A DNA stretch of 55,930 nt, counting the filler, from Bipalium vagum (Eukaryota), in the NCBI GenBank assembly GCA_037834085.1. It is 3 parts of 3 records of this genome, joined end to end, with 100 filler letters (N's around TTAATTAATTAA, not from the genome) between each part and the next. Parts side by side here need not be neighbours in the genome. Positions count along the whole stretch, not along the records: positions 15,912 to 36,335 come from JBBMKC010253504.1; 2 more parts are not named here. One strand, 5' to 3'. The notes beneath the pieces are model-generated. The model was not told the DNA's origin. It made no database searches and saw nothing but the letters and a program-made list of their open reading frames with translations. Shown piece after piece: positions 16,988 to 31,800 of this stretch. The translations under genes and the position numbers were made by a program. How positions within the stretch are numbered: the first letter of the stretch is position 1; every line of letters begins with the position of its first letter.

Positions 16988-19900
16988 TTAAAATCCATGT
17001 GGTTAAGTTATTACATTACCATTTTCTAAATATTTGATCTGTCTTTTATTAAATTCAAAATCATACGTTTTTATAACATATATTGATTATATCCTATTAA
17101 ATTTTTTAAAACTATTTCATGTTAACTTAAATTTTATACTTTCAACTATTTCATAATTTTATTTCTTACTTTTGTTAAGTGGATTATTAGAATTATATAA
17201 TACTAAATTCCTTTTCTTTTCAAAAGTTAGTTTATCTGAATTAATATTATTTTTGACAAATCCTTTTGTTTTAGCTGTTGTAACTATTTCTTTTTTATTA
17301 GTACTCTAAATTTTTATATGATAATCTTTTGGAGCAGGTACAACTATTTCTGTTATATAAGATCCAATCCCACAATCTTTTTCAACTTATTCTGTTAAAT
17401 CTCCTAAATTTTCTTCTTGTAATTTTTCTATTTTTCTAACCGGCTTACATTCTTCATTGTGAGATAAATTGAAAATTAGTAGGGGGATGTAGCTCAGCAG
17501 TTAGAGCAGTGCATGCGCATGTGAAGGTCCTGGGTTCGAATCCCGGTATCTTCGATTAAGTTTCAACTAACATTCATGACTACAATTTTTATTTTCACAA
17601 GAATCATCAATAAATATTGTACTATCAGTATCACAATAAATTACTCTTTCATTTATAGTTTCTAAAAGATTGTATAATCTTAATCTTGCATGAGCAGTTG
17701 TAAATAATTCTATATAAATATTTTTAGTTTTATTTGGTTTTTTCCATTCTTCTTTTATATGATATTTCATCATCCAAACTTCTTCATTTAAAATAATTGG
17801 ATTTGATTCTTTAATTTTGTCATCGAATATTATTTTACAAATATCATTATAATTATAAACATATGAATATTGTTCAAAATCATCTCTCATTCCAAAATAT
17901 CTCCATAAACTAACCAAAAAAATTTTAGATTTAAATCGTAAACCAGCATTAAATTTAATATTATCAATATCAAATATTATCAATATTTTCTGCTACAAAT
18001 TCAATTTTTGTAGTAAAATTATTATCATTTTTACAATCTTTGTTACAATGTTTATTACAACCTGGCGAACAACTTTTAGAATGATGTTTACATTTACAAC
18101 CAGAGGCTTTCAATTTATATTTCAAAAATATATTTACATAATTTTCAAATAAACCTTTTTTAGTTTTTTCAAAATGTTCTATTTCATAAATTTTTAAAAT
18201 TTTATATCCTTTTTCAATTGCTCTATCTATTTCAATTGTTGACCATGTTCAATTAAAGATCTCTCTTCATCATTCTGATTGCATTTTTATTTCTAAAATT
18301 ATAATTATAAAATTATATATTTTAAAATTTCTTTTTGCATGAATTAAGTTATATTTATTATTTATACAGATTTTGCATCTATTTGTTTTGTGATCAGAAA
18401 TTTCAATATTTGATCAACAACTGCTTTTAACATAGTGATTACAATTAATATATTTTTTTCCATACATGTTTTACATAATCTAAATAATAACTTGTGAGCA
18501 TTTCATATTTCTTGTTTATAAGGTAAGACTGGTAAATGTAAATTTCTTGGTGGTAAAAGTTTACATTTTATAACTCCAAAGTAGCAATCTTCGCTTGCAG
18601 CGGCTTTGCTGGAATTTTTATTTAAATATTCTTCTGGTGAAATATTAAATATTTTTATAGGATGTTCAATTGGATATTTATCGTATTTATTTACTGTTGG
18701 ATACAAAGATACAAAATCAGTTTTTCAGTTTTACTTTTATGATATAATTTTATAGTTTCAGTTCTTCCTCCATAAAATGCTTCTTTTGGTTTTAGTTTAG
18801 ATAATTCTGGATCAATTGTAAAATTTTTAAAATCAGGATTTTCTAAAAGCTTTTAATATTCACATTCTCATAATTCTATAAATTCTAATTTTAAATTTAT
18901 ATCTTCACAATATTTTATAATATTATTCTTTTTTTCTAAAATTTGATTATTTAAAAATTCCATTGTTTTATTTCCTTTTTTGCAAACGTCATCTTTGTTA
19001 TAACATTTTAAACAACCATGAAAATAACAACCATTAAATTCATAAATATTTTATAAGTTTGATCATAATAAAATCCGTCAACTTTATATGTTTTATTATT
19101 AGCTCTAATTGTTTTTTCTCCTCTTCTTTTTGCATGTTGAATGGAGAGCAGAGCTCGTATTTATATTATCAATTTTACTTAAATATTCTAACCAATGAAT
19201 ACATTTATAAGAATATATATTCAAAATTACTTAATCTCTGTATTCCAATGTCTTCATTGTTTATCATGGACATAAATATTTTTATACAAATTTGTGTTAT
19301 TATCATATATTGAAAAGGATTCATATTTAAAACGTTGTCATTTGAAATATTTATATTTAAAAATAAATCTCTAAAAATTAAACAACTTTTTGTTAAAACC
19401 ATAACATCTGTTAAACAATAATAAAAAACTTGAATTTGAAAATTAAAAACTTCATTCTTTTTTATTTTTTCATCATGCCATTGTTTTATTAATTTTTTTT
19501 CTTTATTATTATCGCTCATATAACTATAACCATAACATTCTAAATCCGGTTATTTACCAATGTAATTTTGATATTTTGTTGTATTAAAATAATGCGGAAA
19601 ATATCCTTTGGAAGCTTTAAAACCAAATGTTTCTGGAAAAGCTTTTAATGGACATAAAGTAAAAATTTTTAAAAAAGTAAATTTTTTATTTGCATAAAAG
19701 TTATTTTACTATCAGAACAATTTTTTTCTACTGGTAGTTTATTTTGAATCAACCAACCTAATTTTGGATGATTATCATATCTTTTTGCATAATGTGATAT
19801 AAAAGTATATTTTTAAAAATTTTGCAAAAAAATTCACAAAATGTATCAACTAAAAAATTTGAGTTTTCAATTATTATTTTTTTTTAAAATTCTATATTAT

Positions 19901-28855: not shown

Positions 28856-31800
28856 ATGCCACGAAGAATCATTTTTGAAAAACCAATGTACTTGAGAGTT
28901 CTATTAGTTTTATCAGTATTCTATTTTACCTTCGTAACATGTCTGATCCCAAGGATTTGTAGTGCTAATGCCACTCTTGAAGTGGCAATTTGTTGTCCAC
29001 AATTACAAAGTAAGACTTATAGGGTTGTTAATGTTTTTTACTTAGAGAATTGCTTTTTCATTGATCAGATTTCTCAGGAGTCTGTGGAGGAATAGAAAGA
29101 GGAACTTGTGAACAAATAAAATCACAAAGAGATCATAAGTCACTGAATTATGTTGTTAATACAACGTTGGAAGACGATGACAGACTCAACTGGCCAAAGA
29201 GATTCTTTCATTTTATGTGTTCCTGCAAAAAGAATTTCGCTGGTATTGGTTGTGAGACTTGTAAATTTGGATGGTATGGTGAAAAATGTGGTGATAGATT
29301 ATCAAGAACGAGGAAAAATATTGTGAAGTTGACTGATTATGAAAAATTCATCTTTAGATCGGTTCTCAATATCAGTAAATATCAATTGTCGGAATATATG
29401 ATTTTAAATTCGACTTCTCATTCTCATTGTGATCCTGTGAATCCGGAAACGATTCAATTAATCAATGCATCAATATATGACACAATGGTGTATTTGCATT
29501 TTTATTCCTCTAGAAGTACCATATCTAAAGATGAAATGGAATCATGTACTACATCTGATAATATACTTAATTTTGCTCACAAGGTAGGAAGGGTTCATTC
29601 TTTTTCATTTATACTTTGTTTCATTTATTTATATTAAACCTTTTTATAATAATAACACATCTGGCATTCAACAACTTGTTCAATTCTTTGATGATTCTAG
29701 GATTCTGTGTACATATATCAATATTTTAGGGCCCAGCCTTTTTCACTTGGCATCGTTATTATTTGTTAATGTTTGAAGATTTGCTGGGAAAAATCGCTAT
29801 TGAAAAATTTCAATATTTTAACTTCAGCCTACCTTATTGGGACTGGATCAATGAAACTTCATGTACAATTTGTGTCGATGATTTGATGGGGTCAATACCT
29901 ATTAGTGTTGAAAAGTCAGGAATTGGACTTGACAATTGGATCCCTATCTGCCCTCAGATTTCACAAGATTTTGATTGTCATATTTGCGATCCGGGTTTAC
30001 AACAAACTTCATTATGGAGGGAATATTCACATACAGTAAAAAGACTGCCGCTACAGGAGGAAGTAGATGAGCTACTAATAATAAATGAATATGATTCTGA
30101 ACCTTTCAATTCGGAAACATACAGCCGAAAAAGCTTTAGAAATTTAGCTGAAGGATTTGTTCGAATGAATCCGAAAATCAATGATATAAAGATTAAACAG
30201 TTTTTTTCAAATGTGCCTAATGAAAATGTCTTTATGCATAATATGGTTTATTTTGATACATAATTTAATTAATAATTGATTAACTTGGTAGGTTCACTCG
30301 TTTATCAATGGAACTTGGTTGGATCCAACGACCAGTCCAAATGATCCCTTGTTTTTATTACATCATACCTTTATGGATAAAATATTAGAAATGTGGATAC
30401 TTAAGAATCCCCAAACCACGGTAAAATTATATTAATTCTACCACGAATCTCATGGTTCTTTCTACAAGGTTTATTAGAGTTTCAAGCGAAAATACTGAAT
30501 ACTTAACAAAAATATCAATATTGGACATTAATCTTTATTTCGCGGCAATATCTAAAATTAACGAAATATAAAACTTAAAAAAAATAATAATGACCGAATT
30601 AAAAATAAAAATAGTTTTTGGATTTGAGAAAAACATTTTAAGAATTTTATTATTTTACTTCTTTTCAATTGGAAATGGTCACAAAAAGTTTTTCAGACCC
30701 AAATGAATTAAAAAATTTTATCTGAAGAAATAAGAGAACATTTATTAAAACACAAAACATTACATTTAATATGAAAATTGAATAACTTGTGCGAAAAAGG
30801 TTAACTTCTACCTGGCCAGCCAACTCAGCAAGTAGTTTCACCAGATCACTTCGAAAGAAAGTGATGTTGTGAGTTTGGTGGAATTACTAGGGAATTACCA
30901 GTGGAATTACTGTGCACTGGGAACTTGTTCCGGATGGTCGAGCTATCGATAGTAAACTTTATGCTGAACAACTACAGCTAGTTCATGATACTTTGAGCAC
31001 TCGTTACCAAGCATTGTTGAGTCGCTGTAGAGCACTCCTACAGCATAATAATGCTCCAGCTCATACATCACGAATAGTGAAGCGGAAAATTCAGGAACTG
31101 CAAGGCAACGAAGTCATCTCCTACCCAGCGTATATCGCGGATCTCGCTCCTTCTAATTATCATATGTTTCGCGCTCTCTCACATTTTTTACGAGTGAGAC
31201 GCTTTGGTTCAGAGGAAAAGCTCAAAAATGGATTTGCCAAATTCTTCAAAAAACCTGATTGGTATCGCCATGGAATTGAGCAATTTGCAGAAACATGGCG
31301 TCGGGTTATAGAAACAGATAGACTATATTTTGAGGATTAATGTGATCTGTGTTAAGCAAATTTTGTAAATTAAGTATTTGCTTAAAAAGAAAAAAAACCT
31401 GATCCCGTGATAATGATGTTGAAGTGTGTAAGTAAAAGTGGATTTAACGATTTAAATAATATATAAAGTTCATTTAATTTTGGAACATTCACAATTAATT
31501 GAGGCTAGAAATTTATAATGTGCTTTAATTTGAAATTTTGCAGAAATAGTGAAAATATAGTTTGTTGTCGAGATTTGAGCCCAATGGGGGGGGGAGTCAA
31601 GGATGAAAATATTTTTATTAAAAGAGATACCACAAAGTATTTTTACGGTGATATCTTTGAGAAATTAAAAGGTACCAATGTCGTATTTTCCAAAGATTGC
31701 AATTGTGGCAAATTGGAACTGATTATCAAAAAATAAAGTGTATTCAAATTGTAAGACTGAAATTGACAATAACAGAAACTTGGTTTGTGAGATGAGTTTA

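What the first reader, a model, noticed from the sequence alone, without database searches (positions are those of the whole stretch)
17465..17570. 100-bp tRNA-Ala cassette with TIR-like ends and TAA flanks inside the viral polymerase: a tRNA-carrying MITE?
Seen: TAA|ATTGAAAATTAGT-AG-[tRNA-Ala-like, 72 nt]-ATTAAGTTTCAAC|TAA. The 13-nt ends are inverted repeats (10/13), and the insert splits pPolB just after YCDTDS (..CSHEC / SHNEECK..). A and B boxes are intact, the anticodon arm is destroyed, and there is no poly-A/SINE tail or T-run terminator. Known: TAA/TTA duplications typify PIF/Harbinger-Tourist MITEs, whereas tRNA-derived mobile elements are normally SINEs. Inference: possibly a minimal DNA-transposon-mobilised Pol III promoter (TFIIIC site), antisense to the viral gene. 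Caveats: short AT-rich repeats arise by chance, and removing the insert plus one TAA leaves a 1-nt frameshift.
Basis: partly seen in the sequence, partly recalled or inferred. Interest (0 to 1): 0.7.

Follow-up and report, generated by a model that had tools for sequence, protein, structure and literature searches.

The report
Solo LTR carrying a tRNA look-alike
The insert in this dead viral-type polymerase gene is one end-repeat of a tiny, gene-less retrotransposon whose end-repeats contain a broken alanine-tRNA gene that likely serves as its promoter; this kind of element was described in 2024, but here it sits in what is likely a flatworm and makes 5-base rather than 4-base target duplications.

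Summary
The insert is real and mobile, but it is not a MITE. Its true ends are 17458-17572 (115 nt, TG...CA), flanked by a 5-bp duplication. 18 of 18 sister polymerase copies with both flanks carry that 5-mer site once. The 'TAA flanks' and '13-nt TIRs' lie inside the element. It is one LTR of a ~360-nt TRIM: LTR, primer site, 131 nt, purine tract, LTR. 5-bp duplications are perfect in 9 of 9 two-LTR and 15 of 22 solo-type copies. The LTR core derives from host tRNA-Ala; the primer site matches host tRNA-Arg(ACG). This fits Helenus/TRIMp3 (PMC10886601). Departures: the host is likely a flatworm, a phylum not listed there, and listed animal Helenus make 4-bp duplications. Chimeric junctions point to a coding Ty3/Gypsy family as likely helper. 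Pol III transcription is untested. This scan noted tRNA-bearing solo LTRs before, in this genome and others. Verdict: new variant of a known kind; interest 0.35.

The parts
17453..17457 (+). Left copy of the 5-bp target-site duplication (TTCAT)
   Evidence: Same 5-mer at 17573-17577; present once in sister copies
17458..17572 (+). Solo LTR, 115 nt, TG...CA, of a ~360-nt TRIM (family 1)
   Evidence: Shared extent of copies; 92-93% identical to both LTRs of two-LTR copy L060; loose ends of contigs pile up at 17456-58 and 17572 (run may be the source sample)
17458..17482 (+).
   Evidence: Constant in copies; U3 label inferred from position
17468..17480 (+).
   Evidence: 10 of 13 with 17555-17567; predicted stem in 5 of 5 folded LTRs of both families
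17483..17554 (+). tRNA-Ala-derived body with A- and B-box sequence and a broken anticodon stem
   Evidence: Rfam RF00005; 56 of 73 columns identical to host tRNA-Ala(TGC) gene L139
17490..17501 (+). Box A-like motif; this copy has A for G at 17499
   Evidence: Sequence against copies
17512..17521 (+). Perfect 10-nt palindrome CATGCGCATG centred on the former anticodon loop
   Evidence: Intact in 50 of 59 family-1 bodies; also in family 2, absent from 2 of 2 host tRNA-Ala genes
17533..17543 (+). Box B motif, intact
   Evidence: Sequence; Rfam alignment
17555..17572 (+). U5-side part of the LTR; holds the right 13-mer, the right TAA and the terminal CA
   Evidence: Followed directly by the primer site in 5' LTRs; U5 label inferred from position
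17573..17577 (+). Right copy of the 5-bp target-site duplication (TTCAT)
17000..19800 (-). Decayed family-B (protein-primed type) DNA polymerase gene of a multi-copy Maverick-like element, the insertion target; limits approximate
Evidence: Many stops in all frames; DNA_pol_B_2 hits below cut-off; flank has 450 first-look candidates, best 39 non-self hits 92-96% identical.

Best explanation
The insert is a lone 115-nt LTR of a ~360-nt non-coding LTR retrotransposon (TRIM) whose LTRs contain a tRNA-Ala-derived body; it likely arose when a full element inserted here and then lost its middle by LTR-LTR recombination, and the family is likely transcribed by RNA polymerase III from that body and likely copied in particles of a coding Ty3/Gypsy element. 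Steps: (1) Shown: anatomy LTR-PBS-131 nt-PPT-LTR, TG...CA ends, 5-bp duplication, empty site. (2) Shown: the primer site is complementary to the 3' end of host tRNA-Arg(ACG). Inferred: reverse transcription is primed by tRNA-Arg. (3) Inferred (about 0.75): A/B boxes in the 5' LTR drive Pol III through the T-poor middle into the 3' LTR, so that the tRNA body serves as the terminal repeat. (4) Inferred (about 0.6): the helper is the Gypsy family with a 250-nt LTR found here. (5) Inferred: this copy is inert. It has a damaged A box and sits in a polymerase gene that has many other lesions.
For: Empty site: 18 of 18 sisters with both flanks have 5 nt where this copy has 125; 1 further sister lacked the left flank. 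5-bp duplication perfect in 24 of 31 copies, 4-bp in 1 of 31, 6-bp in 0 of 31; mismatched-pair control 5 of 930. Nine two-LTR copies of 317-362 nt. Primer site matches tRNA-Arg gene L089 plus CCA at 18 of 18 (L031, L106) or 17 of 18 (L060). Two sister families keep the tRNA body at 65 of 73 but the U3 side at 17 of 29 and the middle at 108 of 149 (one pair of copies). The middle has no run of 4 T in 9 of 9 copies, against 277 of 2216 background windows without one. Helper: domain order gag-protease-RT-RNase H on L193 and L194, with an integrase-like piece after RNase H on L195; same TAACA end directly before the primer site; 5-bp duplication in 5 of 9 copies; L143 joins its LTR to the TRIM middle and a TRIM 3' LTR; L144 joins its LTR to a 39-nt complement of tRNA-Arg, 38 matching; L184 has a hybrid primer site.
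Against: 51 of 55 family-1 LTRs have TTTT just after the tRNA body, which could stop Pol III inside the 5' LTR; read-through has to be assumed (host tRNA-Arg gene L089 ends in a longer T run; family 2 has no T4 there). The helper's usual primer site differs: 18 of 19 gag-fetched loci carry it and it matches tRNA-Arg at only 9 of 18. Its LTR starts TA, not TG. The L143 chimera could be DNA-level recombination at the shared 9-nt junction. The integrase hit is weak (E 0.044). A fourth LTR-like end with the Arg primer site was not characterised. 7 of 22 solo-type copies lack a perfect 5-bp duplication (3 of them have one mismatch; L028 looks like a 3' LTR). Copies examined were the best-scoring hits, not a random sample.
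Confidence: 0.8

Rival explanations
1. Same TRIM, but the tRNA body is a passenger or an RNA structure (packaging, dimerisation) and transcription comes from Pol II read-through or a Pol II promoter.
For: TTTT follows the body in 51 of 55 family-1 LTRs. Acceptor, D and T arms can still pair, which a bare promoter would not need. Kojima states that Pol III function of Helenus is not validated (PMC10886601).
Against: Only 25 nt lie upstream of the body, little room for a Pol II promoter. A/B boxes are kept in both families while the anticodon arm is broken. The middle avoids T runs. Cassandra is reported as Pol III-transcribed (as cited in PMC10886601).
Confidence: 0.15
2. Same TRIM and promoter, but the helper is another autonomous family (for example the uncharacterised fourth LTR-like family, or a Copia or BEL element); the chimeras with the 250-nt-LTR Gypsy family are side products.
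For: The Gypsy family's usual primer site is not the Arg one (18 of 19). Five loci show another LTR-like end before the Arg primer site. In PMC10886601, Helenus with 5-bp duplications are tied to Copia.
Against: tRNA-Arg copies sit directly behind the Gypsy LTR (L144, L184), and three such loci continue into gag, protease or RT-RNase H of that same family. L143 joins the two elements exactly at the LTR/primer-site border.
Confidence: 0.3
3. One reading: a 100-bp PIF/Harbinger-type MITE with 13-nt TIRs and TAA duplication that carries a tRNA.
For: The 13-mers do match 10 of 13, and the left and right parts of the LTR form an imperfect inverted repeat in both families.
Against: TAA is constant and internal; the sister site is a single 5-mer and 120 nt are extra; copies pair up around a primer site and purine tract.
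Confidence: 0.02
4. A SINE head or tailless tRNA retropseudogene inserted by a LINE.
For: The core is tRNA-derived and short. Kojima proposes SINE insertion into an LTR as the origin of such elements.
Against: Fixed TG...CA ends, fixed 5-bp duplication length, no tail, and constant sequence upstream of the tRNA body.
Confidence: 0.01

Closest known systems
Helenus (TRIMp3), Kojima 2024, PMC10886601 (seen: main text parts 1-4 of 6, figures-and-tables section, supplement parts 1, 10, 11 of 11, term search over the whole supplement)
   Same: TRIM under 1 kb with a tRNA-derived sequence in both LTRs, primer site and purine tract, solo LTRs, several families per genome, 3'-end tRNA primer and Gypsy as suggested helper in animals. 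Size (LTR 114-115, middle 131, total ~360) lies within the listed range of 311-1263.
   Different: Host phylum is not among the six animal phyla listed; no flatworm term in text or supplement. 5-bp duplication, whereas animal rows of Table S1 list 4 or n.d.. Primer tRNA-Arg(ACG)-type; the motif TGGCGACC has 0 hits in the supplement (line breaks could hide one). Helper supported by chimeric junctions, not only by primer-site likeness. Sequence relationship to listed families was not computed.
Ajax (5S-derived TRIMp3 of nemerteans; PMC10886601 Table S2)
   Same: Animal TRIM with a Pol III-type small-RNA piece in its LTRs and 5-bp duplications
   Different: Ajax carries 5S rRNA sequence and a tRNA-Leu primer site; this element carries tRNA-Ala and an Arg primer site
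Cassandra (plant 5S-bearing TRIM; known here only through PMC10886601 and search listings)
   Same: Small-RNA gene inside the LTR proposed as promoter; transcription from 5' LTR into 3' LTR
   Different: 5S, plants, 565-860 bp; Pol III transcription shown there, untested here
ta-TRIM of taeniid cestodes, PMC4558846 (seen: passages only)
   Same: Flatworm TRIM with TG...CA LTRs, primer site, purine tract, many solo LTRs and a candidate helper (lennie)
   Different: ~198-bp LTRs, ~590-bp middle, 8-9 nt tRNA-Leu primer site, mostly 4-bp duplications, reported absent from S. mediterranea; no Pol III term in its text
PIF/Harbinger-Tourist MITEs (recalled; no call)
   Same: Short, AT-rich, non-coding, with inverted repeats near the ends
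   Different: No TAA/TTA duplication, inverted repeats are internal, and the element has retrotransposon priming signals

Membership tests
TRIM (non-autonomous LTR retrotransposon) | Two direct LTRs with TG...CA ends, total under 1 kb, no coding capacity | tested here: met
   9 two-LTR copies of 317-362 nt, all TG...CA; TG 28 of 29 and CA 26 of 29 in L002-L030
TRIM (non-autonomous LTR retrotransposon) | Primer-binding site after the 5' LTR, complementary to a host tRNA | tested here: met
   18 of 18 or 17 of 18 to tRNA-Arg(ACG) L089 plus CCA
TRIM (non-autonomous LTR retrotransposon) | Polypurine tract before the 3' LTR | tested here: met
   Purine run ends the 131-nt middle in the loci; a few are degenerate
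TRIM (non-autonomous LTR retrotransposon) | Short fixed-length target-site duplication and empty site | tested here: met
   5 bp in 24 of 31 copies, control 5 of 930; empty site in 18 of 18
Helenus / TRIMp3 | tRNA-derived sequence with boxes A and B inside the LTRs (the paper's defining criterion) | tested here: met
   Rfam tRNA hit; 56-59 of 72-73 columns identical to host tRNA-Ala L139
Helenus / TRIMp3 | tRNA part unlikely to be a working tRNA | tested here: met
   No ARAGORN call in the window; family copies called 'tRNA-???'; changes cluster in the anticodon arm
Helenus / TRIMp3 | Transcription by RNA polymerase III | not testable with these tools
   No expression data were available to lay; sequence evidence is mixed
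Animal Helenus as described in 2024 | 4-bp target-site duplication | tested here: not met
   4 bp in 1 of 31 (a T run), 5 bp in 24 of 31; family 2 has 5 bp in 4 of 5; animal rows of Table S1 list 4 or n.d.
Animal Helenus as described in 2024 | Mobilised by Ty3/Gypsy | tested here: inconclusive
   Chimeras and shared ends support it; the helper's usual primer site differs
Animal Helenus as described in 2024 | Common descent with a listed family | not tested
   Published sequences were only viewed in part, not aligned; the paper itself argues for several origins
PIF/Harbinger-Tourist MITE | 3-bp TAA/TTA target-site duplication | tested here: not met
   TAAs are internal and constant; duplication is a variable 5-mer
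PIF/Harbinger-Tourist MITE | Inverted repeats at the very ends | tested here: not met
   The 13-mers begin 10 nt inside the left end and stop 5 nt inside the right end
tRNA-derived SINE | tRNA head at the 5' end, simple-repeat or poly-A tail, variable-length duplication | tested here: not met
   25 constant nt precede the tRNA body, no tail, fixed 5-bp duplication

The most novel reading that the evidence does not exclude
The captured tRNA is more than a promoter. Its anticodon arm has been turned into a self-complementary 10-mer that pairs two element RNAs, like a retroviral dimerisation signal, while the D and T arms keep folding. A stem that encloses the tRNA body can form only in the 3' LTR copy of the RNA, and would let Pol III read through the first T-run and stop at the second. 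One 72-nt tRNA would then supply promoter, terminal repeat, dimer signal and terminator to a 360-nt parasite of Gypsy particles. Basis: palindrome in both families and not in host tRNA-Ala (1-6% of shuffles reach that length); predicted dimers of 3 of 4 element copies pair 12 bp there, gain -15.7 to -19.9 kcal/mol against -9.4 for host tRNA-Ala; the enclosing stem differs in sequence between families yet pairs in both, with two double-sided changes among 9 pairs by my reading. Against: one template switch can create such a palindrome, the two families exchange sequence (L137), family-2 LTR folds are not better than shuffles (z -0.3, -0.6), and the window copy's predicted dimer does not use the palindrome.
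Probability: 0.15. Interest if true: 0.7.

Novelty: new variant of a known kind. Interest (0 to 1): 0.35.

Why it matters
It corrects a MITE call and extends tRNA-bearing TRIMs to what is likely a flatworm. It breaks the published pattern that animal Helenus make 4-bp and fungal or plant ones 5-bp duplications, so duplication length follows the helper's integrase and not the host kingdom. The chimeric junctions name a candidate helper, which the 2024 paper could infer for animals only from primer-site likeness. At about 360 nt with two sister families, it is a small test object for the open question whether Helenus LTRs are really Pol III promoters. Practically, many tRNA-Ala-like hits in this genome are LTRs and should be masked in tRNA annotation. 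The mechanism class is known, so a specialist would be interested but not astonished.

Tried and rejected
MITE/TAA reading rejected. SINE reading rejected. First pattern for host tRNA-Ala genes found nothing; a looser one found 9 places, of which 2 are tRNA-Ala(TGC) genes, 1 a tRNA-Cys gene, 2 element copies and the rest fragments. Sequencing-run search: no RNA holder listed; this says nothing on expression. The one DNA holder laid may be the source sample and is not counted as independent. Folding of the middle part gave no excess structure (z -0.05 and -0.94), so no packaging hairpin is claimed. Alignment A1 had one row in the wrong orientation and was not used. Pfam found nothing for the open frame next to the insert or for two sister frames across the site, and the PDB sequence search gave only an E 0.72 hit; the polymerase call rests on YCDTDS and two sub-threshold hits. 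The integrase-like piece has no Pfam hit at 1e-3. Look-up of earlier findings by sequence was blank. PMC7962491 (passages only) does not mention such repeats among the terms searched. No family consensus was built; all comparisons use real copies. Copy numbers were not determined: 2062, 613, 450, 1233 and 1970 are first-look candidates. LTR-pair divergence (1-5 substitutions in 8 of 9 pairs, 13 in one) was not turned into an age, because no rate is at hand and short-read assembly favours pairs that differ.

Full report
Observation. Rfam finds a tRNA at 17483-17554 (39.4 bits, gathering score 29) with the anticodon arm unaligned; ARAGORN finds no tRNA in the window. The surrounding - strand holds a decayed family-B polymerase frame with YCDTDS just upstream of the insert; two of seven open window pieces hit DNA_pol_B_2, below cut-off. 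The stretch is G000:C253504.

True ends. A search of the own genome with the 106-mer gave 2062 first-look candidates, 40 scored, 30 fetched. Both TAAs are inside that unit (left 25 of 29, right 29 of 29 full-length copies in L002-L030). Outside it lies a variable 5-mer, here TTCAT on both sides. Of 19 sister polymerase copies fetched with the right flank, 18 had both flanks, and all 18 have 5 nt where this copy has 125; 10 of the 18 have exactly TTCAT.

What the unit belongs to. Some copies are followed by TGG-initiated sequence or preceded by a purine run, and some come in pairs. A search with the 131 nt between one pair gave 613 candidates, 40 scored, 30 fetched, which show the order LTR, primer site, middle, purine tract, LTR. 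Across 58 loci (L031 and L048 dropped as repeats of L012 and L004) a motif scan found 22 solo-type units, 9 two-LTR elements of 317-362 nt and 16 LTRs with a primer site or purine tract on one side. Perfect 5-bp duplications flank 9 of 9 two-LTR and 15 of 22 solo-type units (the window copy is among the 22); 4-bp matches 1 of 31, 6-bp 0 of 31; flanks paired across copies match in 5 of 930. This is a TRIM and the window holds a solo LTR. That it arose by LTR-LTR recombination is inferred from established LTR biology.

Primer and source tRNA. A pattern search found a host tRNA-Arg(ACG) gene, L089. The primer site matches its 3' end plus CCA at 18 of 18 in L031 and 17 of 18 in L060; the two variants occur 9 and 12 times among 21 exact matches, perhaps two isoacceptors (inferred). 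Host tRNA-Ala(TGC) genes L132 and L139 match the LTR body at 56-59 of 72-73 columns; the differences cluster at about positions 25-34 and 56-65. The anticodon stem is broken in the whole family, and the changes create the palindrome CATGCGCATG, intact in 50 of 59 bodies.

A second family. A search for the same primer site with another next base gave 36 places, 30 fetched. Many belong to a sister TRIM with a 118-nt LTR, the same primer site and 5-bp duplications in 4 of 5 checked copies. Between one copy of each family the tRNA body is 89% identical, the U3 side 59%, the U5 side 78% and the middle 72%. This fits selection on the body, but exchange between families also occurs: L137 has a family-1 left end on a family-2 body.

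Pol III. For: boxes A and B are kept, only 25 nt lie upstream, and the middle has no run of 4 T in 9 of 9 copies where 277 of 2216 background windows lack one (the nine are one family, so this is close to one observation). Against: 51 of 55 family-1 LTRs have TTTT right after the body, so read-through must be assumed. The window copy has lost that run and one G of box A. Transcription was not tested.

Helper. Another LTR of about 250 nt also ends TAACA directly before a primer site. It starts TA, shows 5-bp duplications in 5 of 9 copies without a recognised primer site, and heads a coding element with zinc knuckle, protease, RT and RNase H in that order, with an integrase-like piece behind RNase H on L195: Ty3/Gypsy order. 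Its usual primer site differs from the TRIM's (18 of 19 loci fetched with its gag; 9 of 18 match to tRNA-Arg). Three kinds of junction link it to the TRIM's primer and RNA. L184 has the first 10 nt of the primer site in the Arg form. L144 carries 39 nt of tRNA-Arg complement behind the LTR (38 match), longer than anything the TRIM holds. L143 joins the LTR to the TRIM middle, purine tract and a TRIM 3' LTR, without a duplication across it. Eight loci fetched by pattern have this LTR end with the Arg primer site, three running on into gag, protease or RT-RNase H of the same family; being fetched by pattern, they give no frequency. I read this as tRNA-Arg and TRIM RNA being present in this family's particles (inferred, about 0.6).

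They are real but internal. As RNA they are predicted to extend the acceptor stem in both families; the arms differ in sequence between families and still pair. Family-1 LTRs fold better than shuffles (z -1.8 to -3.0), family-2 LTRs do not. With the palindrome's predicted dimer this is the basis of the novel case, which I rate 0.15.

Host. The genome has many Wnt genes, so it is an animal. Three different COX1 sequences read best under table 9, with AAA at positions that read as conserved Asn. Table 9 covers flatworms and echinoderms; low G+C and the T-rich coding strand favour a flatworm (recalled knowledge, not tested). Three COX1 types may mean a mixed assembly.

Comparison with the known. 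Helenus is defined as a TRIM with tRNA-derived sequence in its LTRs (PMC10886601); all sequence criteria are met. That paper lists six animal phyla without flatworms, and its animal rows give 4-bp duplications or n.d.. The flatworm TRIM in print that I found, ta-TRIM, is larger, Leu-primed and mostly 4-bp (PMC4558846, passages). Five literature searches listed no flatworm tRNA-bearing TRIM; Repbase, Dfam and most subscription journals are not covered, main-text parts 5-6 (except the tables) and supplement parts 2-9 of the Helenus paper were seen only through term searches. Earlier notes of this scan reached the Helenus reading for other pieces of this genome and for another planarian; I looked them up after stating my reading and do not count them as support.

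Verdict. Solo LTR of a tRNA-Ala-bearing TRIM (about 0.97), likely Pol III-driven and likely Gypsy-mobilised. New variant of a known kind; interest 0.35.

Noticed in passing
L091, L106, L109, L115, L134 (own genome): A sister TRIM family with a 118-nt LTR, the same tRNA-Ala-derived body and Arg primer site, a ~144-nt middle and 5-bp duplications in 4 of 5 copies.
   Followed up: partly
L137:12-113 (- strand): LTR with a family-1 left end and a family-2 body and right end: a chimera or intermediate subfamily.
   Followed up: no
L166, L170-L195: Abundant Ty3/Gypsy family (1970 first-look candidates for its gag piece) whose LTR starts TA and whose gag-like frame appears to begin inside the LTR and read through the primer site.
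   Followed up: partly
L095, L103, L107, L108, L118: A fourth LTR-like end, without a tRNA body in the part seen, followed by the Arg primer site and then unrelated sequence.
   Followed up: no
L087, L088, L144: Primer-site copies that run 38-40 nt into the tRNA-Arg complement, up to the anticodon arm: likely footprints of reverse transcriptase copying its primer past the usual stop.
   Followed up: partly
L055, L057, L143: 3' LTRs followed by a further, partial primer site; tandem arrangement or aberrant strand transfer.
   Followed up: no
L004, L012, L032, L034, L040, L044, L052, L056: 8 of 9 two-LTR copies have 10 or more gap columns between their LTRs; could be real instability of the body or assembly bias against identical pairs.
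   Followed up: no
L121, L122, L123: Three clearly different COX1 sequences, all fitting mitochondrial table 9; the assembly may hold DNA of more than one animal.
   Followed up: no
L084-L086, L090, L133, L135: Half tRNA genes (Arg 3' halves, Cys 5' halves) joined to unrelated sequence, mostly on short contigs; real fragments or assembly chimeras.
   Followed up: no
window 29065-29634 (+): 190-aa open frame with a weak laminin-EGF hit (E 0.0046, below cut-off).
   Followed up: no
window 17573-17950: The polymerase flank has 450 first-look candidates, the best at 92-96% identity: a large burst of Maverick-like copies, most sampled ones decayed.
   Followed up: partly
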